A stretch of DNA of 25,415 nt from Pirellulaceae bacterium (lineage in GTDB: Bacteria > Planctomycetota > Planctomycetia > Pirellulales > Pirellulaceae): contig DASRJP010000151.1 in NCBI GenBank assembly GCA_035649415.1, positions 1-25,415 of the forward strand, in the 5' to 3' direction. Below are positions 10,565-24,178 of this stretch, piece after piece. How positions within the stretch are numbered: the stretch's first letter is position 1; each line of letters begins with the position of its first letter. The notes beneath the pieces are model-generated. The model saw only the letters and a program-made list of their open reading frames with translations, made no database searches and was not told the origin of the DNA. The translations under genes and the position numbers were made by a program.

Positions 10565-13500
10565 TCAGGTCCTGCCGCCGGCTGTGGTCACGGGCTCCTT
10601 GATCGCTGCAGCCTTGGCCCGCTGCGGCACGGTTGGGCTGGTTTTCATCAGCCACAGTAGCATCGGAGCGGCGATGAACACGGTGCTGTACGTTCCGGAA
10701 ACCACGCCGATGAGCATGCAGAAGGCGAAGGTATGGATCCCCTCGCCCCCCCAGATGTAAAGGATGACCACCACCAGAAGCGTCAAGCCGCCAGTCAGCA
10801 GCGTGCGGCTCAGAGTCTGATTGATGGCGTCGTTGATCATCTGGGCAGAGATGAGCGTGCTCTTGCCGCGGATCTCGCGAATGCGGTCAAAGATCACGAT
10901 CGTGTCGTTGATCGAGTAACCGATCAGCGTCAGGAATCCGGCCACGACCGTCAGGCTGATCTTGAATTCCTCAATTCCCAAGAATCCGAGGGCCGAGGCG
11001 ACGTAGTAACTGGCGCCGATGCCCGCCAGCATCACCAGCGTGTCGTGCGCGAGCGAAGCGATTGCGGCAATGCCCCAGCTCAGTTTCTGGAAGCGGAACC
11101 AGATGTAGGCGGCAATGCCGAGTAGGCTCACGAGGACGGCTGAGAGGGCCTTGAGCTGCATGTCGAGCGTCACTTGTCCGGAGACGCTGCTGGAGTTCTG
11201 CCAGACTGGCGTGGCATCCATCGATTTCTTGAGTTCCGTCAGCACCGCTTTGGCAGCCTCCTCGCCCAGCGGCAGGGTCGTCTTCCACGTTTCAAAGGGT
11301 GCGTTGTCGCGGCCATCCCACTGCGGGTTGGCAACCTCGACGAACGGGTGCTGCGCGATTGCCCTTTCGGAGGCCTGGCGGATGTGCTCCAGCAGTGCGT
11401 AGGCGCTGATCCGGTTATCAGGGAAGCGGATTTCGACAACGGTCTTTTGTGTGCTCGGCGCGGCCGGTTTGGTCTCTGCGGCGGGAGGCGTGGCGGCGGA
11501 CGACTCGGGCGCGGCGGGAGGAGCTTTTGTCCCTTCAGCCTTCGCAGGTGCAGCTTTTTCATCGACTGGCGAATCCTTGGCCTTTTCAACCTCCGACTTT
11601 GCTGCTTTCTCCTCCTGGCCGCAGTCCGACGACTTCTCGCCGGCTGCTTTTTCTTTTTCCCCGGCAGCGGCACCCTTCTCCTCGGGTTGCACGGGCGGCG
11701 CAGCGCTTTCCGCAGCACCGGCGGCCGGGGCAGCTCCGGTCGTCTCGAGGATCTTGTACTCCATGTGGTACGTGCGGATGCGATCCGCACCCGTCTTGGG
11801 ATCCTTTAGCGCCTGTTGGACGTGTTTTTCCAGATCGGCCACCTTCTCCAGCGAGGAGTCGATCTTATGCACCGTGCCCGGCGCCTCTCCCGCAATCGAG
11901 ATTTCGTAGACCTGATAGTCCACCGAGGAGTTGGTCTTGGGGTCCTTCACGTCGTCAAACTGGTCCCGCATCGCCAGACGGACTTTGTCGGCGCTCATGG
12001 CTTGCCGCAGCATCGGAATCACGGAGGACCCGCCTTTGAGATCGATGTCGAAAATGCCGGCCCCGCGCGACACGGTTGCGACCAGACCGATGAAGATCAG
12101 CAAGCACGATGCGATCGTCATCGGTGGGAACAGCTTCACCCAGTCCACATTGGGATGGGTGAGAAACTTCGTCATCGACATCGAGGTGAGCCAGCGCGTC
12201 CGCTCGCCAGCGTCGAAGATCACGCGGGCACAAAAGATGGCGGTGAACATACTGATCACGTTCCCCAGCATCAGCGTAATGCCGAAACCGCGGAGCTGAT
12301 CAGTGCCGATCACATAAAGTACGAGGGCGGTCAGAAACGTCGTCAGGTTGCCGTCGATGATGGCGGACAGAGCCCGATCGAAACCGTTGCGAAGGGCCAT
12401 TCGCAGGGCGGCGCCACGCTCCGTTTCCTCGCGGATACGCTCGAAAATCAGCACGTTGGCGTCGATCGACATGCCCACCGTGAGCACCAGGCCCGCCAGC
12501 CCCGGCAGCGTAAACGGGGCCTGGATGATGATCATGATCGCCACGGTCAGCAGCAGGTTCAGCACCAGGGCCAGCGCGGCGGTAATCCCGGCAAACCGGT
12601 AGTACAACGCCACCAGGACCAGCACCACCAGCAGAGAAATCGCCAGCGACCAGCTCCCTTTGATGATCGTGTCCAATCCCAGGATCGAGCCGATCAGGTT
12701 CTCGGCGATCGGGGTTGGAAACAGGACGACCGGCATGCTGCCGGACTTGAGCAGCTCCGACATGAAGCGGACTTCCGGCTCGGTAAAGCGGCCGTGAATG
12801 TAGCCTTGCTCCGTGATCTGCCCTTCGATCGTGGGAGCCGAGATCAACTCGCTGTCAAACACGACGGCAAGCTGCCGCCTGGGGGGCGGGAGATTCTGAC
12901 CCGTCAGCGCCCCCATCTTGCCGATCCCTTCCCCCTTCATCGTGAAGTTGATGCGATAGCCATCGGCTTCCAGCGACGGCCAGGCGTAGGCCAGATCCTC
13001 TCCCCGCACGTCCAGGTCGTCGCTGTCGGGCGCCCGCAGCAGGACCTCGATATCGGGAATCTCGCGGGCGGCCAACACGCGGGCTGCGCCTTGGCCGCTG
13101 TGGTCGAATTGTGCGATCTCGTCAGGCGTGAACGTGAGGATTTCACCCGTCGCGGAGTTGCGGACCATGTCGCCACCTGCCGGCGAATAACGCAGCGGCG
13201 AATTGGGCTTGGTCCGATCCTCGCGGGCGACTTTCGTCCAGATGCCGATCGTCTTTTCGACCTTTTCGGGGCTGTCGTCGCTGACGTTGACGGTATACGA
13301 CTTTTTGCGGACAGGATCCTTTTCCTGCTCTAGGGCCGCTTCGCGGATCTGGGCGTCGTTGCTCTCGTTGTCAGCGACGATGAGGAACCGCAGCGAGCCG
13401 GTGGCGGTGACCCGGGCCTTGATGTCGTCGATCTGGGCCTTGTCCACCTCGGAGACGATGATCTCGATTTGCTTGGGACCGGCCTTGCGGATGACCAGAT

Positions 13501-13903
13501 CCTTGACGCCGCTGGGATTGAGCCGCTGCCGCAGCACTCCAATAACGGAATTGAGGTCGTAATCACCCTTTCCATGAGGGTTGAGCAGAGCCGTCCGCGC
13601 TTCATCCACCTCGTAGACCAGATTCACGCCCCCCCGCAGGTCGGCGCCGAGCTTGAACACACCGAATACGATGATGGCGATCGAGAAGGCCCAGGAAGCC
13701 AGGATCAGACTGAATTTCCAGCCAAAGCCTTTCAGCCGCATGGAACTGGCCAGTAAGTACCCCAGCGCAATGCTCACCAAAATGGCGGCCAGAGATACGT
13801 AGAGGACGGGCGGAATGCCGAAAAAGGTAATCGACTGCTTGAAACTGGGTTCGAGCAGTTGATCGATGGCCGCAACCAGCGGCAGTAGACTGTCAGACAA
13901 CAT
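10565..13903 (-). CDS. secDF: protein translocase subunit SecDF (fused SecD-SecF)
   Basis: 1112 aa. SecD N-terminal TM, periplasmic domain and an RND-like 6-TM bundle, followed by a SecF TM, periplasmic domain and second 6-TM bundle. AAGGAAC Shine-Dalgarno 9 nt upstream of ATG 13903. Contains a K/A/E/P-rich low-complexity insert of about 100 aa in the SecF periplasmic domain. Confidence 0.95.
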   Translation of the reverse strand: MLSDSLLPLVAAIDQLLEPSFKQSITFFGIPPVLYVSLAAILVSIALGYLLASSMRLKGFGWKFSLILASWAFSIAIIVFGVFKLGADLRGGVNLVYEVDEARTALLNPHGKGDYDLNSVIGVLRQRLNPSGVKDLVIRKAGPKQIEIIVSEVDKAQIDDIKARVTATGSLRFLIVADNESNDAQIREAALEQEKDPVRKKSYTVNVSDDSPEKVEKTIGIWTKVAREDRTKPNSPLRYSPAGGDMVRNSATGEILTFTPDEIAQFDHSGQGAARVLAAREIPDIEVLLRAPDSDDLDVRGEDLAYAWPSLEADGYRINFTMKGEGIGKMGALTGQNLPPPRRQLAVVFDSELISAPTIEGQITEQGYIHGRFTEPEVRFMSELLKSGSMPVVLFPTPIAENLIGSILGLDTIIKGSWSLAISLLVVLVLVALYYRFAGITAALALVLNLLLTVAIMIIIQAPFTLPGLAGLVLTVGMSIDANVLIFERIREETERGAALRMALRNGFDRALSAIIDGNLTTFLTALVLYVIGTDQLRGFGITLMLGNVISMFTAIFCARVIFDAGERTRWLTSMSMTKFLTHPNVDWVKLFPPMTIASCLLIFIGLVATVSRGAGIFDIDLKGGSSVIPMLRQAMSADKVRLAMRDQFDDVKDPKTNSSVDYQVYEISIAGEAPGTVHKIDSSLEKVADLEKHVQQALKDPKTGADRIRTYHMEYKILETTGAAPAAGAAESAAPPVQPEEKGAAAGEKEKAAGEKSSDCGQEEKAAKSEVEKAKDSPVDEKAAPAKAEGTKAPPAAPESSAATPPAAETKPAAPSTQKTVVEIRFPDNRISAYALLEHIRQASERAIAQHPFVEVANPQWDGRDNAPFETWKTTLPLGEEAAKAVLTELKKSMDATPVWQNSSSVSGQVTLDMQLKALSAVLVSLLGIAAYIWFRFQKLSWGIAAIASLAHDTLVMLAGIGASYYVASALGFLGIEEFKISLTVVAGFLTLIGYSINDTIVIFDRIREIRGKSTLISAQMINDAINQTLSRTLLTGGLTLLVVVILYIWGGEGIHTFAFCMLIGVVSGTYSTVFIAAPMLLWLMKTSPTVPQRAKAAAIKEPVTTAGGRT

Positions 13904-13983
13904 GGCAAAACGTTCCTTGGCCTGGACCAGTAGATTCTCCAGCCGATTACGAACCTAGAAATTCCTGAGCGGCGCTAAGAGCG

Positions 13984-14364
13984 TCAAGTCGATTCCTTGG
14001 CGTCGGAGGTTTCCTCTTCCGGACTTCCGACGCGGGAAATGGCGCTGCGCAACACTTTAATCTTGGTGTTGTTTCCGTCGTCCACCCGCAAGGTCACCAC
14101 TGCCGATCCGGGCGCGGCATTGACCACCGTTCCGCAGATCCCGCCAATCGTGACCACCTGATCGTTTTTCTTGATATTCGCCAACAGCTGCTCCATCTCC
14201 TTGCGCTTGCGCCGCTCGGGCGCAATCAGCATGAAGTAAAAGAGCACCCCGATGATCAGAAACGGCCAGAGCTGAAACCACAGCGAAGATGCGGGGCCGC
14301 CGTTGCCGCCTTTTTCCTGTTGCGCAAGCAGCGGAAGCAAATCGACCAGGGTGGCAATATCCAA
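13984..14364 (-). CDS. yajC: preprotein translocase subunit YajC
   Basis: Single TM plus YajC core (LIIGVLFYFMLIAPERRKRKEMEQLLANIKKNDQVVTIGGICGTVV). It sits between tgt and secDF as in the E. coli tgt-yajC-secD-secF operon. The ORF-track start (14553) overlaps the tgt stop and gives an implausibly long N-terminus. The start is placed at TTG 14364 (LDIATLV...); GTG 14415 is an alternative. Confidence 0.75.
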   Translation of the reverse strand: MDIATLVDLLPLLAQQEKGGNGGPASSLWFQLWPFLIIGVLFYFMLIAPERRKRKEMEQLLANIKKNDQVVTIGGICGTVVNAAPGSAVVTLRVDDGNNTKIKVLRSAISRVGSPEEETSDAKEST

Positions 14365-14527
14365 GGGGATCGCCCTCAACTTGCGGACGCTATGGCCCGC
14401 CGGGCTCAGCGGCACGCGGCCAATGGAAAACGGCCCGGGGAAAACCGCTCGCTCGGGCCGGTTCTGAAACACCAACCAGAAATCATAAAGCCTTGCGCCA
14501 CAACGGGCAAGGGCAGCATTTGCGGGC

Positions 14528-15670
14528 TCAAATCGCTCCCGGCGAGCGGTCATTCGATACCGCTCGCCACCGCGCCAGCTTTTGTTCGCAAAAGGCCGCG
14601 AACCGATCCTCGGTAATCGCCTGCCGCGACTGGGCCATCAGCCGCTGGTAGTAGGTCAGGTTGTGTGCGGTCAGCAGGATCGGCCCGAGCATTTCGTCAG
14701 CCAGAAACAAGTGCCGCAGGTAGCCCCGGCTGTGTCGGCAAGCCGGGCAGCAGCAGCCTTCTTCCAGCGGGCGATCGTCAAGTTGGTGGACCGCATTACG
14801 CAGCCGCAGCGGACCGTCGTCTGTGAACGCCATGGCGTTGCGTCCATTGCGCGTCGGCAGGACACAGTCGAACAGATCCACGCCTCGGCGAATCGCCTCC
14901 AGCAGGTCTTGCGGCCGGCCCACGCCCATCAGGTATCGCGGTTTGTCGGCCGGAAGGACCGGAGCAACGGCATCCAGGATCCGGTACATCTCCTCGGGGG
15001 TCTCACCCACGCTCAAACCGCCGATCGCATAACCGCCGAAATCGAGCGCCATGAGCGCTTGGGCGCACTCGATTCGCAGCTCGGCATTCAGTCCCCCCTG
15101 GACGATGGCAAACTGGGCCTGGTCGCTGCGCTTTGCGGCCTGTCGGCAGCGCTGCGCCCAGCGGATCGACCGCTGGCAAGCGTCCAGGATGGTCGCTTCG
15201 TCGCTGGGAAGAGCGACGACATGATCCAGGACCATGGCCACGTCGCTGCCCAAGTCTTCCTGAATGGCGACCGCGCGCTGGGGGCTGAGCTCCATCAGGC
15301 GGCCGTCGATGTGAGAGCGAAAGATGGCCCCTTCCTCGCGGACTTTCGTCATTTGCGCCAGGCTGAAGAGCTGAAAGCCGCCGCTGTCCGTCAGGATTGG
15401 CCCGTCCCACCCCATAAAGCGGTGCAGACCGCCAAAATGCTTGATCGTCTCAGGGCCTGGCCGCAGCGCCAAATGGTAGGTGTTGCCCAGAATCATCTGC
15501 GCGCCGGTGTCCCGCACCTGTTCGATGGTCAATCCTTTGATCGTCGCCTGCGTGCCGACGGGCATGAATGCCGGCGTCTGAACGAGACCGTGCGGCGTGT
15601 GGTAAATGCACTGCCGGGCTGGACAACCAGCGTCCACATGAACGAGGCGAAAGGAAAACGCAGCAGGCAT
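14528..15670 (-). CDS. tgt: queuine tRNA-ribosyltransferase
   Basis: 380 aa. The N-terminus aligns with E. coli Tgt ([18 protein letters not shown]). Catalytic Asp region (ILTDSGGFQ). Zn site ([16 protein letters not shown]). The start ATG lies only 4 nt downstream of a strong palindrome and there is no obvious Shine-Dalgarno. Confidence 0.95.
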
Positions 15671-15674
15671 CGTA

Positions 15675-15721
15675 GAACGGAATTAGTTCCGTTCCTTTGG
15701 CGAACGGAATGAATTCCGTTC
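15675..15721. promoter_or_regulatory. two tandem GAAC-N12-GTTC palindromes (candidate operator or RNA hairpins) abutting the tgt start
   Basis: Palindrome 1 at 15675-15694: GAACGGAA-TTAG-TTCCGTTC. Palindrome 2 at 15702-15721: GAACGGAAT-GA-ATTCCGTTC. Their centres are 27 bp apart. They lie between the stop region of the TPR-alphaCTD gene and the ATG of tgt on the minus strand, and the tgt ATG follows 4 nt after the second palindrome. Confidence 0.4.
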
Positions 15722-15733
15722 CACACTTGAGCG

Positions 15734-17059
15734 TCAGTCGCCGCGGAGCTTCAGCCCGAGTTGGGTGAGCTTTTCCCGAACTTCATTGAGGCTGGTCACG
15801 CCGAAGTTCTTGCACTCCAGCAAATCGTCCCCCGACTTGCGGATCAACTCGCCGATCAGTGTCAGCCCCAGCCTGGCCATGCATTTGCGAGCCCGCACCG
15901 ACAGGTTCAGCTCGGAAATCGGGCGTTCCAGCAGCGCCTGCTCGTCGGGCGACATGGTCGCCACGTCGAGCGCCGGTTCGATGACGCCGCGTTCCTGCGC
16001 GAACTGTCCCAGCTCCAGTCCCTTCGACGAGAGCATCTCGCGAATTTCGACGAGCGACGTCTCGCCAAAATTCTTGCTCGACAAGAGTTCCAATTCCGTG
16101 GTCCGCGTCAGGTCCCCCAGCGTGCGAACGCCCATTTTTTGCAGACAGTTGCGGCTGCGGACCGACAGTTCGAAATCGCTGACGGGCACGCTTAGGAGCT
16201 GAGCAAGGCGGTCGTTCCGCCGCTGCGCCTCTTCGTCGATCCAGCCGCTGCCGGACGCCGATGCATCCTTCATGTACAGCCGCGCGCGGGGATGATCCGG
16301 GTATGCTTCCAGCACCCGCTGATAGCAGGACTGCGCACGGTCGTACTGATTGCGGTCTTCGTACAAGAGGCCCAGGTTGATTAGCGTGCCCACATTGGTC
16401 GGAAAACAAGCAGCCGCTCGCTGATAAAGCTGCAGCGCCGTCTCGTCGTTGCCGCGGCGATCGTTTTCCGTCGCCAGGGCGAACAGAGCGCCGGGGTGTT
16501 TGGGATCGGCTTCAACCGCCCGTTCCAGGAGGGCGATGGCCTCGCTGGGGCTTCCTCCCAGCGCGGAGACGGTGGCCGCCCGCTGATACAGATACTCGGC
16601 CGTCTGTTCCACAGCGCCAGAGAGCTTGTCGAGGGTTTCCAGTGCCTTCTTCGGATCGCGGGCGCAGCGCTGGGCTTCGGCGGTCGAAAGGGCGCAATCG
16701 TCGGCGTTGTAGCCGCCAACTTTCGCCGCCGCGAACGATTTCGCCGCCTCGGCATACTCACCCATCGCAAAGCGAGTCTTGCCCAGGTAGTAATGCGCGA
16801 CAGCGCCGCCATCGGCCGAACTGAGGGTCTCGATAGCGCTGCGGTAACGTCCCAGCAGGAAGTAACAGACTCCCAAGCGAACTTTGGCTGCCGGCGTGCG
16901 ATCCTCGCGGACCTCCAGCTCGGCTACCGCGTCACGCAACAGCGAAAACTGGGAATAGTCCTCGGCAATCGCGTGGATCAGCTGGGAGATCTCCCGCGGC
17001 CCAAACGTGCTGTTGGACAGGACAATTTCGCGCAGATCGGCAAGGACGGTGGGTACCAT
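15734..17059 (-). CDS. TPR-repeat protein with two C-terminal RNA polymerase alpha-subunit CTD (alphaCTD) domains
   Basis: The N-terminal roughly 280 aa carry TPR-like repeats (YYLGKTRFAMGEYAEAAKSF, YQRAAACFP ... LGLLYEDRNQYDRAQSCYQRVLEAYPDH). Two C-terminal copies match the E. coli RpoA alphaCTD ([53 protein letters not shown]). Copy 1: FELSVRSRNCLQKMGVRTLGDLTRTTELELLSSKNFGETSLVEIREMLSSKGL. Copy 2: LNLSVRARKCMARLGLTLIGELIRKSGDDLLECKNFGVTSLNEVREKLTQLGL. ATG 17059 has a GGAG Shine-Dalgarno 7 nt upstream; TTG at 17065 is an alternative. Confidence 0.85.
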   Translation of the reverse strand: MVPTVLADLREIVLSNSTFGPREISQLIHAIAEDYSQFSLLRDAVAELEVREDRTPAAKVRLGVCYFLLGRYRSAIETLSSADGGAVAHYYLGKTRFAMGEYAEAAKSFAAAKVGGYNADDCALSTAEAQRCARDPKKALETLDKLSGAVEQTAEYLYQRAATVSALGGSPSEAIALLERAVEADPKHPGALFALATENDRRGNDETALQLYQRAAACFPTNVGTLINLGLLYEDRNQYDRAQSCYQRVLEAYPDHPRARLYMKDASASGSGWIDEEAQRRNDRLAQLLSVPVSDFELSVRSRNCLQKMGVRTLGDLTRTTELELLSSKNFGETSLVEIREMLSSKGLELGQFAQERGVIEPALDVATMSPDEQALLERPISELNLSVRARKCMARLGLTLIGELIRKSGDDLLECKNFGVTSLNEVREKLTQLGLKLRGD

Positions 17060-17167
17060 CAGCAACTCCGGTCAGTGATTCGTTTGGAAATCCTGTGGCC
17101 GCAAAACTTTACCAGGATGGCGCTTAACAGTGGGTGGGAGTTCTTCCTTCCCCGTCTGCGGCAAGAG

Positions 17168-17241
17168 AGCCAGCAGTGGGAGTCGAACCCACAACCCCCG
17201 CATTACGAATGCGGTGCTCTGCCGATTGAAGCTATGCTGGC
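17168..17241 (-). tRNA. tRNA-Thr (anticodon CGT)
   Basis: 74-nt cloverleaf on the minus strand. Acceptor GCCAGCA/TGCTGGC. D-arm GCTT-CAATCGGCA-GAGC. Anticodon arm CCGCA-TTCGTAA-TGCGG. T-arm GTGGG-TTCGACT-CCCAC. Discriminator T; no encoded CCA. Confidence 0.85.
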
Positions 17242-17465
17242 CTGCGGCTCACAGCTTTGTGGGCTGAAAACCTATAACGCTAGGCAATCGCATTTATAGC
17301 GTCAAGGCCCGATGGGGGAAAGGCTTGCGACGACGGACGCCAACCGTTGAGAGCTGTGCGGATCGATCGCAGCCGCGAGCGGCAACGCGTGATTGCCAAG
17401 AGCCTAGAGACTGTCTCGGCGACTAGGGTTCGCTTGCAGCCCGGACCGCGGGTGCGCAAAAAAAT

Positions 17466-17637
17466 CGGGGGCTCTGACGTACCAAAGACTCTTTGGTATG
17501 CGGTGATGGCCAGGGGCAAGGCAACCACGCCGCGAATGTTCGTCAGAGCCCCCACGGTCCTCAAATTTGATGTCGTGGAGTACACGACAATGCCCCCTCT
17601 AGGCACCCCGCGTGCCAGTTTTCATTTGTCCTCTGAT
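17466..17637 (+). other. structured 5' leader (candidate cis-regulatory RNA) upstream of the lipid-kinase/kdsA unit
   Basis: A 13-bp perfect inverted repeat (GGGGGCTCTGACG at 17467-17479 and CGTCAGAGCCCCC at 17541-17553) encloses an 8-bp/3-nt-loop hairpin (TACCAAAG-ACT-CTTTGGTA, 17480-17498). A further hairpin lies at 17571-17587 (GTCGTG-GAGTA-CACGAC). A terminator-like GGCAC-CCCGC-GTGCC followed by AGTTTTCATTTG lies at 17602-17628. The region is AT-richer than the flanking coding DNA. Confidence 0.3.
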
Positions 17638-17703
17638 GGCGCAGGTCACCATCGATGCAAAGACTTTCTGCTGAAGAGCTTATGTCGTTCATGCGGCCAC
17701 GAT

Positions 17704-18789
17704 ATGCTCGCTGACTACAAACCGCGTTCGCTGGCACTCGTTGGGACTTGTCTTGTTTCGCTACAATTGGCCCGGCTCAATGCTGCTCCTCGCGCCATTC
17801 TGCACCAGAACCGAACATCCCCGCGCGTGACGATTCCGCTTACCCAGATTGACAGCCGCGCCACGGAAGTGCTCATTGCCGTGAATCCAAATGCCGGGTC
17901 ACGCGCGCAGATGCCGATCGTGGAGGACCTGGTCCATCAGCTAACCACCCTGAATTTCCACGCCACGGTCTTCCACGAGATTGACGCGCTGGCTGCGGCA
18001 GCGGCCGAACAGACCGTGGCGGGGACACTCCGGGCGGTGGTCGCGGCGGGGGGGGATGGTACCGCCCGTCTGGTGGCCGAAATGACGCATGAGGGCACCC
18101 CGCTGACCATCCTGCCGCTGGGAACCGAGAACTTGTTGGCTCAGCACCTGGAGCTATCGACAGACACGCGCGCGATCGCACTCCGTATTGCCGCCGGGCT
18201 CACGGTGCGTCTGGATGCGGGTCAGGCCAACGGGCGGCTGTTCACGCTGATGGTGGGATGCGGTTTCGATGCAGACGTCGTACAGCGACTGCACCGCGAC
18301 CGGCGGGGGCACATTCACCATCTGTCGTACATCAAACCGATCGTGGATTCGATCCGTAATTACGACTATCCGCCGCTGCGGGTACACTATCGCAAAGTGA
18401 ACGGAAAATCGGCCGTACTGACGGCGAGGTGGGTGTTTGTGGTGAATTTGCCGCGTTATGCCGGCGGCCTGAATTTCGCCCCGAGCGCCTCGGGTACGGA
18501 CGGACTGCTGGATATTTGCACGTTTCGCGAGGGATCGCTGTGGAGCGGTCTGTTGTATTTGGGCGGCGTCGTGCTCGGACAGCACGAGGCGATGGAAGAC
18601 TTCTTCCAGGCCCACAGCACCGAAATGAAAATCGAATCGAAGGCCCAAGTCCCCTACCAGATTGACGGCGATCCCGGTGGCGAATTGCCGCTGTCGATCA
18701 GCGTGTTGCCGCAGCGGCTGACGGTTCTCGTCACTCGACCGTGGGCCGAGCGTTATGGGTTCGATACCGAGGAACGCGTGATGATGTGA
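17704..18789 (+). CDS. DAGK-catalytic-domain lipid kinase (YegS/BmrU-like)
   Basis: Diacylglycerol-kinase catalytic-domain motifs are present: [27 protein letters not shown]. The ORF-track start (17347) adds 119 arginine-rich residues over an obviously non-coding structured region, so the first plausible start is ATG 17704 (MLADYKPRS...). Stop TGA at 18787-18789. Confidence 0.8.
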
Positions 18790-19628
18790 ATGCTGCTGCT
18801 CATGACAACCCGGCCGCCATTGGTCCGTACCGCTGCGGGCGCGGCCAGAAGCTGCTGCTGATTGCCGGCCCGTGCGTAATCGAGACGCCGGACCTGACTC
18901 TGTCGATTGCCGTGCGGCTGAAAGAGATCGTCTCCGCTCTTCCGGTGCAGTTGGTGTTCAAGGCTTCCTTCGACAAGGCCAACCGCACCAGCGCCAGCGC
19001 CTTTCGGGGCGCGGGTCTCGACGAGGGCCTGGCGGTCCTGGCCGACGTAAAGCGCCGCATCGGCCTGCCTGTTACGACCGACATCCACGAGTCCCACCAG
19101 GCGGCGCCCGTCGCCGAAGTCTGCGATCTGCTTCAGATCCCGGCATTCTTGGCGAGGCAGACCGACCTGCTGGTGGCCGCGGCCCGCACCGGCCGCGCCG
19201 TGCACGTAAAGAAAGGGCAGTTCATGGCGCCGTGGGACATGCGGCACGTCGTCGACAAGCTGGCGGCCGCCGGCTGCAAAAACATCCTGCTTTGCGAGCG
19301 CGGCACGTTCTTTGGATATGGCCGCCTGATCAACGATATGCGTTCGCTCCCCATGATGCGCGACCTGGGAGTGCCGGTCGTCTTCGATGCCACGCACAGC
19401 GTGCAGGAGCCGGGTGGACTGGGCAGCGCCACGGGCGGCAATCGGGCGATGGTCGAGCCGCTGGCCCGCGCGGCGATGGCCGTCGGCATTGACGGGCTGT
19501 TTTTGGAGACGCATCCCAGTCCCGATTCCGCGCCGAGCGATGGCCCGAACATGCTGCGGCTCGACGACTTGCCCGCAGTTCTCGCGCGGCTACTGGCAAT
19601 CCGGAAGACCGTGGAGAGCTTTTCGTGA
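18786..19628 (+). CDS. kdsA: 3-deoxy-8-phosphooctulonate (Kdo8P) synthase
   Basis: Strong similarity to E. coli KdsA along the whole length ([56 protein letters not shown]). GTG 18786 overlaps the upstream stop (GTGA), with a GAGGAA motif 11 nt upstream. The upstream GTG 18741 is an alternative start. Confidence 0.9.
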
Positions 19629-21469
19629 GATCGCGACTCATTTGCGCGATTGTCCTGCCCGTGGCGGCCGTGCTGGCACTTATTGTGTCGGTGTCTGCGG
19701 GCGGCTGCTCGGTCGATCCCAATGAAAACGTCCCCCAGACGCAGGTCAGCTCGGACATCGTCCAGCCGGTGGACGATCTCACCCTGGCGGCAGGCGCCCT
19801 GGAGTCGATCCCTTCGTCCCCCGACAGCAAGACTGCCGAGCGCGCGCTGTACTATTTCAACAAGTGGATCCACCAGCAGGAAGAAGTGTCGATCGAGGAA
19901 AAACTCGATCCACTGCTGGACAATCTCCCGCAGAGCTACCAAATCGATCGGCTGAAGACCGACTTGCGGCGGCGATCGATCACGGAGAGTGATATTTTCT
20001 ATCTGCTCCAGTGCTCGTGGCTGCGCGACGTAGCGGCCCAAGTGGCGAAACAACCGATTGACGCCGATTTTCAGAAATGGCTGCCGGAACTGGAGCAGTC
20101 GCTGGGGATCGACGACGCCGAACGGCTGGCGCTTGCGCACCGGCTGTTCGACTGGACGATTCGCAACATCCAGCTCGACCCGCTCCCTCCTCAGCCGGCT
20201 CCCCCGAGAGCGACGACAGAAACCAACGATCCGGCTTCCGTCCGGGCTTCGCTTCCCGGTCCGCTGCGGGGCGAACTTGGTCCCGGGTATGGGCACCTCC
20301 CCTGGCAGGTGTTGATTTACGGCCACGGCGACGCCTGGGAGCGGTCGCGAATCTTCATTCTGCTGGCCCGGCAGGCGGGGCTCGATGCCGTGATGCTCGG
20401 CATTCCGCAGACCCAAGGGACCGGCGGCACGCGCCCCTGGATTGCCGCCGTGCTGCTGCGCGACCAATTGTATTTGTTCGATGCGGCGCTGGGATCGCCC
20501 ATCGCAGGACCCGGGGGAAAAGGAATCGCGACACTGGAGCAGGTCGTCGCCGATCTGGGGCTGCTAAGGGCGCTCGATTTGCCTGGCGACACAGCCTATC
20601 CGATTGGCGCCGACGATCTGTCGGAGGTGTCGGCACTGATCGACGGTGAATTGCCGTCGCTGTCGGTGCGCATGCGACTGCTCGAGCCGGCGATTGTTGA
20701 CAAGCGAAAGATGAAGCTGACGACCAGTCCCAGCGAGCTGAAACAGCGGCTGCTGACGTGCAAGCACATCTCCGCGGTCTCGCTGTGGCGCGTCGTGGTC
20801 GAAGCGGAGCTGTATCAGGTTGCGCTGTCGATGGCGCTCTCCAGTGACCCGGCACGCCTGGAGACACACGCGCGTGAGACGGGACTTTTTCTGCCTTCCC
20901 AACCGCTGATGCACGCGCGGCACCTGCACTTGCAGGGGAAATTCGATGCGCCGCCCGAAGGGGAAGAGCAGGCAGGCGCTCGCGAGCGCTATTTCAAGCT
21001 CCGCCCGTCGGACAAGGAGATCGAGGCGCTAGCGAACATGGAAGGAAGAGAGGCGCTGGGAGTGGGAGAGATGGTGCTCCCGACCGATCCCGCCCAGAAA
21101 AAGGCCGTGCTGGAAAGGATGATGGGCATGACGCGCAGCGCCAAACATCATGCCACGTTCTGGATCGGCCTGACGCACTACGAGAGCGGGGACTATGCCG
21201 CCGCCATCGAGTGGTTCCGCGACCGGGTGATTGCCGGCGCTCCGGATTCGCCCTGGCAACACGGCGCGCGATACAACCTGGGGCGCAGCTACGAAGCGCT
21301 GGGCCAGTGGGAAGAGGCTCGCGCGACCTACGTGACCGACGAATCGCCACAGCGGCATGGAAATCTCCTGCGCGCCGCCGCCATCGCCCGAGAACACCTC
21401 CAGGCGGCAGAGGCAAGCGGCGCGACGTCGGCGCCAGCGGACCCGCGATCGGCGGTGAATGACCCCTAG
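19625..21469 (+). CDS. large lipoprotein with degenerate transglutaminase-like core and C-terminal TPR-like repeats
   Basis: GTG 19625 overlaps the kdsA stop (GTGA). Signal peptide plus lipobox ([10 protein letters not shown]). The segment [26 protein letters not shown] ... [10 protein letters not shown] ... LFDAA resembles the transglutaminase-like Cys-His-Asp core with Cys replaced by Ala and His by Arg (inference). The C-terminus has TPR-like helices ([34 protein letters not shown]). Confidence 0.8.
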
Positions 21470-21622: not shown

Positions 21623-22216
21623 GTGACTGCCGTACTCCAGCGTCCGACGCTCGTGCTCAACCGTAGCTGGCAGCCGGTGCGTGTCAGCACGGTTTCTCGC
21701 GCGCTGATCCTCGTCTGGAACGGCGTGGCCCGCGTCGTCGATCCGCACGACTTTCAGCAGTACGACTGGGACGACTGGTCGCGGATGAAGCCCCCGGAGG
21801 GCGAGCCGTTCATCCGCGCGGTGCGGCAGCACTTCCGCGTGCCGGAGGTGGTGACGCTAACGCACTACGACAAGCTGCCGGTGACGCACGTGGCCTTCAG
21901 CCGCCGCAACCTATTCAAGCGCGACGGCTACAAGTGCCAGTACTGCGGCGCTCACCCCCGGCCGGACGAGCTGACGATCGACCACATCGTTCCGCGCTCG
22001 CGCGGCGGCGAGAGCACGTGGGAAAACTGCGTGTTGGCCTGCATGGAGTGCAACAAGCGCAAGGCGAACCTCACGCCTGATGAGGCCAGCCTGCGGCTCC
22101 GCACCAGGCCGGTCCGCCCGCGCTGGAAGCCGCTGTACGCCTCGAGCCAGATGCCGATCGCCAGTTGGTCGAAGTTCATCAGCGAGGCGTACTGGACGGT
22201 TGAGCTGGAGCGATAG
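21623..22216 (+). CDS. HNH endonuclease
   Basis: 197 aa. HNH/zinc-finger nuclease motif: CQYCG ... ELTIDHIVPRSRGGESTWENCVLACMECNKRKAN. GTG start with an AGGAG Shine-Dalgarno 7 nt upstream. Stand-alone small HNH family (COG1403-like). Confidence 0.85.
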   Translation: MTAVLQRPTLVLNRSWQPVRVSTVSRALILVWNGVARVVDPHDFQQYDWDDWSRMKPPEGEPFIRAVRQHFRVPEVVTLTHYDKLPVTHVAFSRRNLFKRDGYKCQYCGAHPRPDELTIDHIVPRSRGGESTWENCVLACMECNKRKANLTPDEASLRLRTRPVRPRWKPLYASSQMPIASWSKFISEAYWTVELER

Positions 22217-22304: not shown

Positions 22305-23405
22305 TTACAGCAGGTTGACGATCTTCTCGGCCAGACCCTTCTCACCGAGCACGACGCTCAGCTTGCCGCCGGAAGCGATCTTCTCGAGCACCTCCAGCTC
22401 CTTGAGCCGCATCAGCGTCGGGTTCTCCGCCAGCAGGCGAGCCGTGTTCGCCTGGCTGCGGGCCGCGGCAGTCTCCTCGCGGCGGGTGATCAAGTTGGCC
22501 TCGGCCGCCTTCTTGGCCTCGGTCACCTTGTTCAGCAGGTCCTTCATTTCCCCCGGCAGCATCACGTCCCGGATGCCGACGGAGAGGATTTCCAGACCCA
22601 GCCCGGTCGCGCGGCGACGCACGAGCTGCTCCAGCTCCGCCGCCACGGCATCCTTGCCAGTCAGCAGGGCGTCGAGCTCGCGAGTGCCGACGACCGCCCG
22701 CAGCACGAGCTGCACCTCGCGGTACAGGGCGGTGCGAACGTCCTCGCTGACGCTCACCGCCAGCCGCGGGTCGCTCACGCGGAAGGTCACGACCGCGGTC
22801 AGACGCAGGGTCACCTTGTCGGCAGTCATGATCTCCTGGCCGCCGACGTCGAGCATGGTCTCGCGGAGGTCCACCGGCACCAGCTTCACGCGGGCGACGT
22901 TCTTCCAGAACGCGTACTGCCCCGGCGGCAGAGTCTCGACGAAGTTGCCGTCGATGAGCAGGACGCCGGCGTGACCGGCCTCGACCGCCTGCACGTCGAG
23001 CAGCTTGTCCACGAGCGGCTGGCGGGCGATCGCCGGCAGCTCCTTGTGGGCAAAGCGGACGGTCCGCGCATCGACGAGCTCGACCTCGACCTTGCGGTGC
23101 GTGGTCCAGTAGGCGAACAGCCCCGGCCCCAGCACGTGGCTGAACCGGCCGTCCACCCAGACGAGCGCCCGCTCGTGGTCCTTGAGGTCCAGTACGGTTG
23201 CACGACCAGTCAGCACGCCGCTCTTGGCGATCATGTCGAGCTGCTCGTGGACCAACCACGGCGCGCGGAGCTGGGCGCGCTCAATCTTGAGTTTGCCCCA
23301 CGGATCGAACATCCAGTGGCGGCCCGCGCCGAGCAGTCGCTCGAAGACGCCGTCGCGAAAGACGATGCCGGCCTCGATGGGGCGGATCTTGATGGTCTTG
23401 AACAT
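22305..23405 (-). CDS. SPFH/band-7 (stomatin/prohibitin-like) domain protein
   Basis: The C-terminal roughly 190 aa form a typical SPFH domain plus coiled coil (LRLTAVVTFRVSDP ... ILSVGIRDVMLPGEMKDLLNKVTEAKKAAEANLITRREETAAARSQ). The N-terminal roughly 180 aa have no TM and contain three repeats of the SPFH N-terminal beta-motif. ATG 23405 (MFKTIKI) has a strong AAGGAGG Shine-Dalgarno 8 nt upstream. The ORF-track start (23432) lies inside the repeat element. Confidence 0.85.
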   Translation of the reverse strand: MFKTIKIRPIEAGIVFRDGVFERLLGAGRHWMFDPWGKLKIERAQLRAPWLVHEQLDMIAKSGVLTGRATVLDLKDHERALVWVDGRFSHVLGPGLFAYWTTHRKVEVELVDARTVRFAHKELPAIARQPLVDKLLDVQAVEAGHAGVLLIDGNFVETLPPGQYAFWKNVARVKLVPVDLRETMLDVGGQEIMTADKVTLRLTAVVTFRVSDPRLAVSVSEDVRTALYREVQLVLRAVVGTRELDALLTGKDAVAAELEQLVRRRATGLGLEILSVGIRDVMLPGEMKDLLNKVTEAKKAAEANLITRREETAAARSQANTARLLAENPTLMRLKELEVLEKIASGGKLSVVLGEKGLAEKIVNLL

Positions 23406-23421
23406 GGGATTGACCTCCTTC

Positions 23422-23592
23422 GTAGTAGGCACACTCCGTGTGCCGTCTCGTGCCCAGGCTCTGCCTGGTCACGCACGTACCCGAGGCTCTGCCTCGGAGG
23501 CTTGCTGTGGTCCTTATCTTGTTACGGGTCGCCGAGGCGAAGACTCGTGGCGGGTTGTGTGTGCGGTACGGCACACGGAGTGTGCCTACTAC
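23422..23592. repeat. composite 171-bp element bounded by perfect 24-bp inverted copies of the hairpin repeat (MITE/BIME-like), copies B and C
   Basis: 23422-23445 is GTAGTAGGCACACTCCGTGTGCCG, the exact reverse complement of 23569-23592, CGGCACACGGAGTGTGCCTACTAC. The 123-bp core holds two hairpins with identical CTCTG loops (CCAGG-CTCTG-CCTGG at 23454-23468 and CCGAGG-CTCTG-CCTCGG at 23481-23497). Flanks: CCTTC immediately left, A+CCTTC on the right. Confidence 0.55.
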
Positions 23593-23907
23593 ACCTTCGG
23601 GCAGCGGAGCGAAGCCAATCCCACGAGCACATGCGGAGTGCGCTTGAGCGGCACTGGCCGCGGCTGCGTCCGCAAAGGCCGTACGAGCATCAGCCGGTCG
23701 TGAACGACCGGCTAAGCGGCTCGGCGTGCCCGTGCCTTGGCAGCCCGGCGAGTGCCGCGGCATCCGCGCACTACAGGGCAAGTGCTGGTGTTGCTGTCGA
23801 GGCCGGCGGGACTAAATCCCACCGCTCGCTCGGCAGCAGATCGAATCTTCGCCCGCTCCCCTCCGGTTTTTGGTGGACGCTCTCGCGTCGGTCGGGTTTT
23901 CAGCCCG

Positions 23908-23980
23908 GTGTGGTACAGGAGTCGAACCTGCAACAGCCAGATTAAAAATCTGGTGCTCTATCCAGTTGAGCTAACCACGC
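23908..23980 (-). tRNA. tRNA-Lys (anticodon TTT), with two stem imperfections
   Basis: 73-nt minus-strand cloverleaf. D-arm GCTC-AACTGGATA-GAGC. Anticodon arm CCAGA-TTTTTAA-TCTGG. T-arm GCAGG-TTCGACT-CCTGT. Acceptor GCGTGGT/ACCACAC. It has a C2-A71 mismatch and a G49-U65 wobble. No encoded CCA. Confidence 0.7.
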
Positions 23981-24106
23981 TCTCGATGACGCCGGCGGTA
24001 TAACCCCTGGTCGGAACGGGCCGCGCCAAACGCTCGCGCGTGGGCGGCGACGCCGCGGGACGGGGCGACATCGGCGTAATTTCCCGGCGAGACAATCGCC
24101 GGGAAG

Positions 24107-24178
24107 AGACGTTGGTAGGAGTCGAACCCACAAAAGACCGCTTTGCAGGCGGCCGCCTGGCCGCTTGGCGTCAACGTC
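24107..24178 (-). tRNA. tRNA-Cys (anticodon GCA)
   Basis: 72-nt minus-strand cloverleaf. Perfect acceptor GACGTTG/CAACGTC. Short 3-bp D-stem (GCC/GGC). Anticodon arm GCCGC-CTGCAAA-GCGGT. T-arm GTGGG-TTCGACT-CCTAC. Discriminator T. Confidence 0.8.

What the first reader, a model, noticed from the sequence alone, without database searches (positions are those of the whole stretch)
15734..17059. TPR protein carrying two tandem RNA-polymerase alpha-subunit C-terminal domains
The two C-terminal roughly 60-aa segments align convincingly with the RpoA alphaCTD. They include the VRS-x-NCL helix that carries the DNA/UP-element contact residue R265 in E. coli, and the GDL ... ELL ... N-x-G-x-x-SL-x-EI segment. 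In this ORF they are fused to an N-terminal TPR array rather than to an RpoA N-terminal domain. A free tandem alphaCTD protein could bind A/T-rich UP-like DNA, or act as a decoy or adaptor for activators that normally dock on the alphaCTD. The TPR part would supply protein-protein interaction (inference). The gene is followed immediately by two palindromes and the tgt-yajC-secDF cluster. tRNA-Thr sits in its upstream region.
Basis: partly seen in the sequence, partly recalled or inferred. Interest (0 to 1): 0.65.

Follow-up and report, generated by a model that had tools for sequence, protein, structure and literature searches.

The report
Free tandem alpha-CTD protein of Planctomycetes
This gene encodes a repeat-scaffold (TPR) protein that ends in two genuine copies of the DNA- and activator-contacting tail domain of RNA polymerase's alpha subunit but lacks the part that builds the polymerase; it is conserved across the phylum Planctomycetota, and no paper in the library searched describes it.

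Summary
The minus-strand ORF 15734-17059 (441 aa) has a TPR array of about seven repeats followed by two RNA polymerase alpha C-terminal domains (Pfam PF03118, E = 8e-41, two stretches). The first copy is 49% identical to E. coli alphaCTD. The modelled copies superpose on solved alphaCTDs at 0.6-1.1 A. The protein has no alpha N-terminal domain, so it is not RpoA.

It belongs to a large family of uniform length that includes Pirellulales, Phycisphaerae and Planctomycetales. The minor-groove arginine (E. coli R265) is kept in 100% and 99% of the two copies. The backbone-contact lysine K298 is replaced by threonine in both.

The gene heads a conserved housekeeping cluster (ruvA-ruvB-queH-spoIID-tgt-yajC-secDF, shortened to tgt-yajC-secDF here). 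In Pirellulales it sits just downstream of tRNA-Thr(CGU).

Function is inferred, not shown. The most likely role is a trans-acting DNA-binding adaptor in transcription, with two tethered alphaCTD modules on DNA and the TPR holding a partner. I found no paper on it and no curated full-length family. I could not check whether planctomycete RpoA keeps its own alphaCTD. Verdict: real, an unstudied variant of a known domain, moderately interesting.

The parts
15734..17059 (-). Complete coding sequence of the TPR-2x-alphaCTD protein (441 aa plus stop at 15734-15736).
   Evidence: ORF. The ATG at 17059 has GGAG six bases upstream. Homologues are 440-443 aa.
16895..17059 (-). N-terminal helical extension (aa 1-55). 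It is the least conserved part apart from the second linker: 17% mean identity among family representatives.
   Evidence: Helices 9-14, 21-33 and 37-50 in the model. Conservation.
16253..16894 (-). TPR superhelix (aa 56-269), about seven helix pairs plus a capping helix. The C-terminal three repeats are the best conserved.
   Evidence: Pfam TPR_1, TPR_2, TPR_16 and others. Model pLDDT is mostly 83-96 in this region. Fold matches are to consensus TPR, OGT and APC/C TPRs only.
16199..16252 (-). Connector between the TPR and alphaCTD1 (aa 270-287) with the conserved acidic D/E-E motif (D275, E276). The stretch aa 263-291 that spans it has the same length, 29 residues, in 120 of 123 representatives.
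   Evidence: Helix 276-289 in the model.
16004..16198 (-). alphaCTD copy 1 (aa 288-352), the most conserved part of the protein (67% mean identity among 50%-cluster representatives). R301 (codon 16157-16159) corresponds to E. coli R265.
   Evidence: PF03118. E. coli alphaCTD matches at E about 5e-15. 49% identity to E. coli. RMSD about 1 A to 3n4m, 3k4g and 9zum. Residue conservation.
15932..16003 (-). Variable acidic Glu/Ala/Pro-rich tether between the two alphaCTDs (aa 353-376). The stretch measured (aa 353-378) is 14-48 residues across the family, median 27.
   Evidence: Residues 357-364 have pLDDT below 50. Length and composition. 12% identity.
15737..15931 (-). alphaCTD copy 2 (aa 377-441), net charge +3. 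R389 (codon 15893-15895) corresponds to E. coli R265.
   Evidence: PF03118 best stretch 370-432. Streptomyces, B. subtilis and M. tuberculosis alphaCTDs match at E about 1e-12. Conservation.
17167..17241 (-). tRNA-Thr(CGU) 107 nt upstream on the same strand, probably co-transcribed with the gene.
   Evidence: ARAGORN and Rfam tRNA. The same tRNA lies upstream on the same strand in 20 of 22 Pirellulales loci, within 252 nt in 19 of them, with spacers as short as 29-45 nt.
15675..15722 (-). Two perfect 21-nt palindromes (GGAACGGAAyTnATTCCGTTC) between the stop codon and the tgt start. As RNA they fold into one long hairpin.
   Evidence: 0 expected by chance. RNA fold of -34.2 kcal/mol, z = -6.2. 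Absent from 80 related loci.
14528..15670 (-). tgt (queuine tRNA-ribosyltransferase), the next gene on the same strand.
   Evidence: PF01702, E = 3.6e-152. It lies directly downstream in 68 of 80 related loci.
10565..14553 (-). yajC (ORF 13984-14553; the true start is probably internal) and a fused secDF (10565-13903), completing the conserved downstream cluster.
   Evidence: PF02699, PF02355 and PF22599. Synteny.

Best explanation
SHOWN. The gene encodes a 441-aa protein with no hydrophobic N-terminal segment and so probably cytoplasmic (read by eye; no predictor was run). It consists of a TPR superhelix, then an alphaCTD domain joined by a connector of fixed length, then a second alphaCTD on a flexible acidic tether of variable length. 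It has no RpoA N-terminal domain. It belongs to a family of uniform architecture spread across Planctomycetota.

INFERRED MECHANISM. It acts as a trans-acting DNA-binding adaptor in transcription or nucleoid organisation.
1. Each alphaCTD module contacts DNA the way RpoA's does. The invariant arginine (R301, R389 = E. coli R265) enters a narrow A/T-rich minor groove. The N-x-G-x-x-S hairpin sits on the backbone.
2. The tether lets the two modules occupy sites about one helical turn apart, like the two alphaCTDs of RNA polymerase on an UP element.
3. The TPR groove holds a protein partner, not identified here; RNA polymerase or a regulator are the obvious candidates. The protein thereby couples that partner to DNA.
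4. The family-specific changes (K298 to T in both copies, K297 to E in copy 1, an extra Arg at the E. coli 267 position) suggest a binding mode related to, but not identical with, UP-element binding.
5. Its position behind a tRNA gene and at the head of a housekeeping cluster suggests constitutive, growth-linked expression. That points to a general role rather than an operon-specific one.
For: Domain identity: sequence; fold; RMSD 0.6-1.1 A to solved alphaCTDs, including DNA-bound 9zum, 3n4m and 1lb2.

Not RpoA: no PF01193 or PF01000 hit. rpoA equivalog scores are about 125 bits against cut-offs of 228-302.

DNA-contact residues over 123 representatives at no more than 50% mutual identity:
- R265 equivalent: 100% in copy 1, 99% in copy 2.
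- N294: 100% and 96%.
- G296: 100% and 98%.
- S299: 98% and 96%.
- In the more divergent copy 2, the non-hydrophobic positions kept at 90% or more are S263, R265, N294, G296, S299 and E302 (E. coli numbering), together with F295 and six leucines. This set includes four of the seven '265 determinant' residues (R265, G296, S299 directly, plus N294 on the same hairpin).
- R265 is a surface residue whose mutation in E. coli abolishes UP-element binding without unfolding the domain (established knowledge: Gaal et al. 1996; Benoff et al. 2002, PDB 1LB2).

Architecture: linker 1 is fixed at 29 aa in 120 of 123 representatives. Linker 2 is 14-48 aa, acidic and of low model confidence. alphaCTD1 is the most constrained segment at 67% identity, against 33% for the TPR.

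There are 456 50%-clusters at E <= 1e-30. At least 7998 90%-clusters match a profile, and the named ones come from Phycisphaerae, Planctomycetales and Planctomycetota.

Expression context: tRNA-Thr lies upstream on the same strand in 20 of 22 loci, with spacers down to 29 nt. A TTGACG -35-like hexamer lies upstream of the tRNA in the window and at least eight loci (read by eye).
Against: No experiment or publication on the family was found in ten literature searches.

K298 is Lys in the solved RpoAs inspected (E. coli, B. subtilis, M. tuberculosis, Streptomyces) and is needed for UP-element binding in E. coli (established knowledge). Here it is Thr in 94% and 88% of the two copies. Position 297 is Glu in 88% of copy 1.

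The protein as a whole is acidic: the TPR region is -6 here and -11.6 on average.

In copy 1 nearly every surface is conserved, including the equivalents of the sigma-contact (D259, E261) and activator-contact (T285, E286, E288, L289) patches. Conservation therefore does not single out the DNA face.

The tRNA-Thr promoter region in the window is not A/T-rich upstream of its -35, so no obvious local target is visible. The TPR partner is unknown.
Confidence: 0.45

Rival explanations
1. alphaCTD mimic, decoy or RNA-polymerase-associated adaptor with no essential DNA contact. The two modules bind proteins that normally dock on RpoA's alphaCTD (sigma region 4, activators, NusA-type factors). The TPR either sequesters them (anti-activator) or tethers the protein to RNA polymerase as an accessory subunit.
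For: Copy 1 keeps the equivalents of the E. coli '261' patch (D259 79%, E261 95%) and the '287' patch (T/S285 94%, E286 95%, E288 70%, L289 98%, G315 94%). The DNA-backbone lysine K298 is lost and replaced by a conserved E-T pair. TPR domains are protein-binding scaffolds.
Against: The same patches are poorly kept in copy 2 (E261 43%, position 287 variable). The minor-groove arginine, which has no known role in those protein contacts, is kept at 99-100% in both copies. Several of the 'patch' residues also help build the helix 3 / hairpin fold, so their conservation may be structural. No partner was identified.
Confidence: 0.2
2. DNA recombination or repair accessory that works with RuvAB. The HhH-type modules would bind branched or distorted DNA, and the TPR would recruit the branch-migration machinery.
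For: ruvA lies directly downstream on the same strand in 7 of 11 non-Pirellulales loci, with gaps of 7-147 nt, and is followed by ruvB in three.
Against: In Pirellulales (68 of 80 loci) and in four other loci the ruvAB genes are no longer adjacent, yet the gene keeps its place and its sequence. The ruvAB-que-tgt-yajC-secDF order is a widespread housekeeping arrangement without functional unity (established knowledge, for example B. subtilis). The domains score as alphaCTD, not as RuvA-type HHH_5.
Confidence: 0.1
3. Local regulator of its own cluster and/or of the divergent lipid-kinase (DAGK/YegS-like) and kdsA-like genes, that is, an envelope-biogenesis regulator.
For: The divergent DAGK_cat/YegS_C + DAHP_synth_1 pair is adjacent in the window, in 18-19 of 80 Pirellulales loci and in three distant loci, L082, L087 and L091. 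The gene is always first in its cluster.
Against: Most loci lack that pair within the flanks fetched, though many flanks are short. An alphaCTD reads minor-groove shape and has low sequence specificity (established knowledge). Sequence constraint is extreme: 63-93% identity among the Pirellulales-type relatives fetched, with two nearly invariant domains. This fits a general factor better than a local one. No conserved operator-like motif was found; the only palindromes are unique to this genome.
Confidence: 0.1
4. It is simply RpoA, a fragment of RpoA, or a member of another HhH family. This is the annotation-artefact reading; JGI/IMG labels it 'DNA-directed RNA polymerase subunit alpha'.
For: The JGI name appears on many homologues.
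Against: There is no alpha N-terminal domain. rpoA equivalog models reach only about 125 bits, through the CTD alone, against cut-offs of 228-523. The architecture is intact and of uniform length in thousands of clusters. PF03118 scores far above its cut-off, and no other HhH family appears among the 25 best Pfam families at E <= 1.
Confidence: 0.01

Closest known systems
C-terminal domain of bacterial RNA polymerase alpha subunit (RpoA alphaCTD; Pfam PF03118; PDB 1COO, 1LB2, 3K4G, 3N4M, 9ZUM, 1Z3E)
   Same: Same fold (RMSD 0.6-1.1 A) and 34-49% identity to E. coli alphaCTD. The same minor-groove Arg (R265), N294, G296, S299 and E302 are kept. Copy 1 also keeps L262, N268, C269 and the D259/E261 and T285/E286/E288/L289 patches. 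As in RNA polymerase, two copies are held together through flexible linkage.
   Different: It is not attached to an alpha N-terminal domain, so it cannot join the polymerase core the way RpoA does. The two copies are on one chain rather than on two subunits. K298 is Thr in both copies and K297 is Glu in copy 1. There is an extra conserved Arg at position 267. Copy 2 has K/R in place of N268.
Other non-RpoA proteins with an alphaCTD-like module: BREX kinase PglW (NCBIfam NF033442, PADLOC PglW) and small alphaCTD-only proteins (NCBIfam NF005841 / PRK07758, 95 aa)
   Same: They show that the alphaCTD module occurs outside RpoA. There is local similarity to positions 789-857 of the 1391-position PglW profile (E = 2e-6, 1e-6) and to PRK07758 (E = 4e-9).
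   Different: The scores are far below those families' cut-offs (25.7 against 990; 36.6 against 115). There is no kinase domain and no defence-system neighbours. Those proteins have no TPR array and not two copies.
Lineage-specific general RNA-polymerase/promoter factors such as CarD and RbpA of Actinobacteria (functional analogy only; from established knowledge)
   Same: Restricted to a phylum, strongly conserved, encoded among housekeeping genes, and plausibly acting at many promoters.
   Different: No sequence or fold relationship. Association with RNA polymerase is not shown here.
TPR-containing transcription activators that touch alphaCTD, e.g. Streptomyces AfsR (SARP-NOD-TPR; PMC10936776, PDB 8HVR)
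   Same: They combine a TPR array with transcription-initiation contacts. alphaCTD is a partner in those complexes (8hvr_K is among the fold matches).
   Different: AfsR binds alphaCTD and does not contain one. Its DNA-binding module is a winged-helix SARP domain. The architectures are not homologous beyond generic TPRs.

Membership tests
Pfam PF03118 RNA_pol_A_CTD (alphaCTD domain) | Profile score above the curated gathering threshold | tested here: met
   138 bits against 23.8, E = 8.1e-41, two separate stretches.
Pfam PF03118 RNA_pol_A_CTD (alphaCTD domain) | alphaCTD fold (compact helical domain with two helix-hairpin-helix motifs) that superposes on solved structures | tested here: met
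   Model pLDDT 86. The best PDB matches are RpoA chains, and isolated alphaCTD chains superpose at RMSD 0.6-1.1 A over 63-68 residues with target-normalised TM-score up to 0.92.
UP-element-binding alphaCTD ('265 determinant' of E. coli: L262, R265, N268, C269, G296, K298, S299) | All seven DNA-contact residues present | tested here: not met
   Copy 1 has 6 of 7 (K298 is T334). Copy 2 has 5 of 7 (N268 is K392, K298 is T422). The Thr is conserved in 94% and 88% of the family.
UP-element-binding alphaCTD | Binds A/T-rich minor groove DNA | not testable with these tools
   Only residue conservation is available: R265 equivalent at 100% and 99%.
RpoA, RNA polymerase alpha subunit (TIGR02027 / PRK05182) | N-terminal dimerisation and core-assembly domain (PF01193 + PF01000), and a whole-protein score above the equivalog cut-off | tested here: not met
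   No N-terminal domain hit. TIGR02027 scores 125.1 against a cut-off of 227.8. All rpoA models match only their own C-terminal positions.
Tetratricopeptide repeat proteins (TPR_1, TPR_2, TPR_16 and others) | Repeated 34-residue helix pairs scoring above the Pfam thresholds and forming a superhelix | tested here: met
   TPR_2 72.8 bits (cut-off 27), TPR_1 65.6, TPR_16 66.8. Fold matches to consensus TPR, OGT and APC/C TPR.
   No HHH-clan family other than PF03118 is among the 25 best of the 33 Pfam families found at E <= 1.
BREX PglW | Ser/Thr kinase domain, about 1400 aa, BREX gene neighbourhood, score above 990 bits | tested here: not met
   25.7 bits over about 70 residues only. The neighbours are housekeeping genes.

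The most novel reading that the evidence does not exclude
The protein is a general, phylum-specific transcription factor that docks on planctomycete RNA polymerase through its TPR. It would supply two extra alphaCTD modules in trans, giving the holoenzyme additional (or, if planctomycete RpoA has a reduced CTD, replacement) upstream-DNA and activator contact points. That would be a new class of RNA polymerase accessory subunit, and a natural uncoupling of alphaCTD function from the polymerase core.
Probability: 0.2. Interest if true: 0.8.

Novelty: new variant of a known kind. Interest (0 to 1): 0.58.

Why it matters
The alphaCTD is one of the best-studied regulatory modules in bacterial transcription, and it is known almost only as the tethered tail of RNA polymerase. 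Here a whole phylum keeps a separate protein with two such modules under very strong constraint. That implies a conserved job for alphaCTD away from the polymerase core.

Finding that job would open a view of transcription or chromosome organisation in Planctomycetota, whose gene regulation is poorly known (my own assessment, not a tool result). Candidates are a general promoter-DNA adaptor, a competitor for alphaCTD partners, or a polymerase accessory.

It would also give a natural system for studying alphaCTD-DNA and alphaCTD-protein contacts in isolation.

There is a practical consequence too. The family is labelled 'DNA-directed RNA polymerase subunit alpha' by one pipeline, and PF03118 has been used as a single-copy marker profile (PMC3663571). 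In planctomycete genomes this gene adds two extra PF03118 hits.

Tried and rejected
Literature. Ten full-text searches found nothing on this architecture (papers opened). They covered TPR plus alphaCTD, PF03118, the database names, Planctomycetes plus rpoA, and 'alphaCTD-like'.

Whole-protein fold search. The search against PDB returned only generic TPR proteins and no analogue of the full architecture. The AlphaFold-database library was not available.

Defence or phage origin. PADLOC gave only a weak local PglW match. PHROGs gave two weak matches to TPR families of unknown function. Rejected.

Palindromes as a conserved operator. They are absent from all 80 related loci, and the intergenic spacers there are unrelated. 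Rejected as part of the system. They are a local RNA hairpin or repeat element.

Known RNA elements. Rfam finds only the tRNA between 15500 and 17500. The simple scan found no promoter and no more terminator-like sites than in shuffled sequence (2 found, 2.0 expected).

Planctomycete RpoA. I wanted to test whether it keeps its own alphaCTD. No rpoA lies in the window or in 1.1 Mb of fetched loci. This was not done.

Full report
THE OBJECT

The minus strand carries an ORF at 15734..17065 that starts from a TTG. The ATG at 17059 is preceded by GGAG at a six-base spacing. It gives 441 residues, the length of essentially all close homologues.

DOMAIN CONTENT

Pfam reports RNA_pol_A_CTD (PF03118) at E = 8.1e-41, 138 bits against a gathering score of 23.8, as two separate stretches. 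A dozen TPR families cover roughly residues 50-262.

NCBIfam rpoA equivalogs match only through their C-terminal positions. They reach about 125 bits against cut-offs of 228-302 or more. Neither alpha N-terminal Pfam domain is found. The protein contains alphaCTD domains but is not RpoA.

Against solved structures:
- Copy 1 (aa 288-352) matches E. coli alphaCTD chains (1coo, 1lb2, 3k4g) at E about 5e-15.
- Copy 2 (aa 377-441) matches Streptomyces, B. subtilis and M. tuberculosis alphaCTDs at about 1e-12.
- Over the 65 core positions, copy 1 is 49% identical to E. coli, copy 2 is 34% identical, and the two copies are 46% identical to each other.

STRUCTURE

The full-length AlphaFold model has mean pLDDT 83. 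It shows two N-terminal helices, about seven TPR helix pairs with a capping helix (aa 56-269), and a helical connector. Two small helical domains follow, separated by low-confidence segments at 272-274 and 357-364.

A model of the tandem alone (pLDDT 86) was searched against the PDB. The matches are RpoA chains. Isolated alphaCTD chains superpose at RMSD 0.6-1.1 A over 63-68 residues with target TM-scores up to 0.92. They include DNA-bound complexes: 9zum (Caulobacter alphaCTD on AT-rich DNA), 3n4m and 1lb2 (E. coli alphaCTD-CAP-DNA), and 3n97 (alphaCTD-sigma region 4-UP DNA).

The whole model matched only generic TPR proteins such as consensus TPRs, OGT, SPINDLY and APC/C subunits. No solved protein has this architecture.

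FUNCTIONAL RESIDUES

For copy 1, E. coli residue number = query residue minus 36. For copy 2 the offset is 124.

I aligned 123 family representatives that are no more than 50% identical to one another. Conservation at positions known to matter in E. coli is shown below.

| E. coli position | Copy 1 | Copy 2 |
|---|---|---|
| R265 (minor-groove Arg) | R, 100% | R, 99% |
| N294 | N, 100% | N, 96% |
| G296 | G, 100% | G, 98% |
| S299 | S, 98% | S, 96% |
| E302 | E, 100% | E, 96% |
| L262 | L, 98% | L, 85% |
| C269 | C, 93% | C, 70% |
| N268 | N, 87% | K or R, 85% |
| K298 | T, 94% | T, 88% |
| K297 | E, 88% | variable (Q 43%, V 15%) |
| A267 | R, 95% | R in the query and >= 90% of 52 sequences |

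K298 is Lys in the four solved RpoAs whose residues were printed (E. coli, B. subtilis, M. tuberculosis, Streptomyces). The Thr is therefore a family-specific departure.

Copy 1 also keeps the equivalents of the sigma-contact patch (D259 79%, E261 95%) and of the activator-contact patch (T/S285 94%, E286 95%, E288 70%, L289 98%, G315 94%). Copy 2 does not.

In copy 2, the positions kept at 90% or more are S263, R265, N294, F295, G296, S299 and E302, together with six hydrophobic core leucines (E. coli 273, 281, 289, 307, 312, 314). The non-hydrophobic ones are thus largely the DNA-contact set. I take this as the best available argument for DNA binding. The argument rests on the published role of R265, K298 and their neighbours in E. 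coli (established knowledge), not on any test here.

ARCHITECTURE ACROSS THE FAMILY

Mean identity of the 122 full-length representatives to this protein, by segment:

| Segment | Mean identity |
|---|---|
| alphaCTD1 | 67% |
| alphaCTD2 | 51% |
| Connector (linker 1) | 37% |
| TPR | 33% |
| N-terminus | 17% |
| Second linker | 12% |

The stretch from the TPR cap to alphaCTD1 (aa 263-291) has the same length, 29 residues, in 120 of 123 sequences. The stretch measured between the two alphaCTDs (aa 353-378) varies from 14 to 48 residues (median 27) and is rich in Glu, Ala, Pro and Asp.

The picture is one alphaCTD held in a defined relation to the TPR and a second on a flexible leash. The leash resembles the flexible linker that joins the two domains of RpoA itself.

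DISTRIBUTION

- Close relatives (71-93% identity, 429-538 aa, nearly all 440-443) are abundant. They include Pirellula staleyi DSM 6068 at 81% identity.
The 80 best are 63-91% identical, and their titles are Pirellulales-type or unresolved Planctomycetota.
- An exhaustive search of 50%-identity representatives gave 456 proteins at E <= 1e-30. Of the best 150, 122 are 420-520 aa and most align over most of the query, down to 36% identity; the rest look like fragments.
- A profile of distant members retrieved at least 7998 90%-identity clusters at E <= 1e-30. The named ones come from Phycisphaerae, Planctomycetales and unclassified Planctomycetota. Thermoguttaceae appear.

Every organism name attached to a family member belongs to Planctomycetota.

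The databases call the protein 'alpha C-terminal domain-containing protein', 'tetratricopeptide repeat protein' or, wrongly, 'RNA polymerase subunit alpha'. No curated full-length family matched in Pfam or NCBIfam.

GENOMIC CONTEXT

In the window the gene is followed on the same strand by tgt, yajC and a fused secDF.

Among 80 related Pirellulales-type loci, tgt is directly downstream on the same strand in 68. secDF follows in 43, and many contigs end before it. Spacers run from 3 to 235 nt and are unrelated in sequence. Some contain hairpins and many are only a few bases long.

Eleven more distant loci reveal the probable ancestral arrangement:
- The full cluster is TPR-2x-alphaCTD, ruvA, ruvB, queH, spoIID, tgt, yajC, secDF. 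It is complete in L084, L087 and L088.
- ruvA is immediately downstream in 7 of 11 loci, with gaps of 7-147 nt.
- spoIID is immediately downstream in 3 of 11, and in one more after an inserted restriction-modification pair.
- Pirellulales have evidently lost the ruvA-to-spoIID segment from this site, leaving the gene next to tgt.

A divergent lipid-kinase (DAGK/YegS) plus kdsA-like pair lies upstream in the window, in 18-19 of the 80 Pirellulales loci, and in L082, L087 and L091.

tRNA-Thr(CGU) lies upstream on the same strand in 20 of 22 Pirellulales loci, within 252 nt in 19 of them, and in the window. Spacers of 29-45 nt in several species leave no room for a separate promoter. A TTGACG -35-like hexamer recurs upstream of the tRNA (read by eye). 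A tRNA-mRNA co-transcript is therefore likely. This is an inference.

The neighbours are housekeeping genes of several unrelated functions. I read the context as evidence of constitutive expression and antiquity, not of a specific pathway.

MECHANISM

What is shown:
- The domain identities.
- The absence of the RpoA N-terminal domain.
- The tethered two-module architecture.
- The conservation pattern.
- The distribution and the gene order.

What is inferred is the function. I favour a trans-acting DNA-binding adaptor (confidence about 0.45). Each alphaCTD would place its invariant arginine in a narrow minor groove. The tether would allow two sites about a helical turn apart. The TPR would bind an unidentified partner.

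The K298-to-T and K297-to-E changes and the added Arg at position 267 argue for a modified binding mode.

Rivals:
- A protein-only mimic, decoy or polymerase accessory (0.2). It is favoured by the preserved protein-contact patches of copy 1 and the lost lysine. It is disfavoured by the invariant arginine in both copies.
- A RuvAB-linked DNA-repair accessory (0.1). It is favoured only by adjacency in part of the phylum.
- A local regulator of the flanking genes (0.1).
- The reading 'this is RpoA or another HhH family' is refuted.

NOVELTY AND SCORE

The domains are textbook, and automatic pipelines already annotate the family. The bare observation is therefore retrievable from databases. I found no paper on the architecture in ten searches and no curated model for it.

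A phylum-wide, strongly constrained protein that carries two alphaCTD modules off the polymerase would surprise most people who work on bacterial transcription. It also makes a concrete question testable. I rate it a new variant of a known kind, with interest about 0.58.

The main gap is that I could not examine planctomycete RpoA. If it lacked its own CTD the finding would be much more important. From general knowledge I expect it to be canonical.

Noticed in passing
window 17167-17241 (-); loci L004-L078 at about 7680-7970: tRNA-Thr(CGU) lies upstream on the same strand in 20 of 22 Pirellulales loci and in the window, within 252 nt of the gene in 19 of them. Spacers of only 29-45 nt in several species imply a tRNA-mRNA co-transcript. 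A TTGACG -35-like hexamer recurs upstream of the tRNA.
   Followed up: partly
window 15675-15695 and 15702-15722: Two perfect 21-nt palindromes (GGAACGGAAyTnATTCCGTTC) fill the gap between the gene's stop and the tgt ATG. As RNA they fold into one long hairpin (-34.2 kcal/mol, z = -6.2) that ends 4 nt before the tgt start and would bury its ribosome-binding site. There is no U-run, so it is not a classic terminator. They are unique to this genome: none in 80 related loci, including one whose protein is 91% identical.
   Followed up: partly
L084, L087, L088 (complete); L081, L085, L086, L090 (partial): Outside Pirellulales the gene heads a long same-strand cluster: ruvA-ruvB-queH-spoIID-tgt-yajC-secDF. 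Pirellulales appear to have deleted ruvA through spoIID from this site. Some Phycisphaerae-type loci keep spoIID directly downstream.
   Followed up: partly
window 17347-19628 (+); L082, L087, L091: A divergently transcribed lipid-kinase (DAGK_cat/YegS_C) plus DAHP_synth_1 (kdsA-like) pair is conserved next to the gene in distant planctomycete lineages. The 480-aa ORF called in the window is probably too long at its 5' end, because the domains start at about residue 175.
   Followed up: no
homologues; PMC3663571: JGI/IMG names this family 'DNA-directed RNA polymerase subunit alpha'. PF03118 has been used as a single-copy marker profile in at least one phylogenomic study. In planctomycete genomes this gene adds two extra PF03118 hits.
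   Followed up: no
L082 9388-12160; L087 3685-4881: Restriction-modification genes are inserted into the conserved neighbourhood. A BanI-like endonuclease plus an N6/N4 methyltransferase sit between the gene and spoIID in L082. A methyltransferase sits between the lipid kinase and the kdsA-like gene in L087.
   Followed up: no
window 13984-14553 (-) and 10565-13903 (-): The yajC ORF as listed is 189 aa and overlaps the end of tgt. The YajC domain occupies only residues 94-173, so the real start is probably internal. SecD and SecF are fused in one 1112-aa ORF.
   Followed up: no
window 21623-22216 (+), 22305-23432 (-), 23907-24178 (-): A stand-alone HNH endonuclease ORF (197 aa) lies next to an SPFH/Band 7 protein, followed by tRNA-Lys(UUU) and tRNA-Cys(GCA). 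A second, unrelated TPR protein (614 aa) lies at 19625-21469.
   Followed up: no
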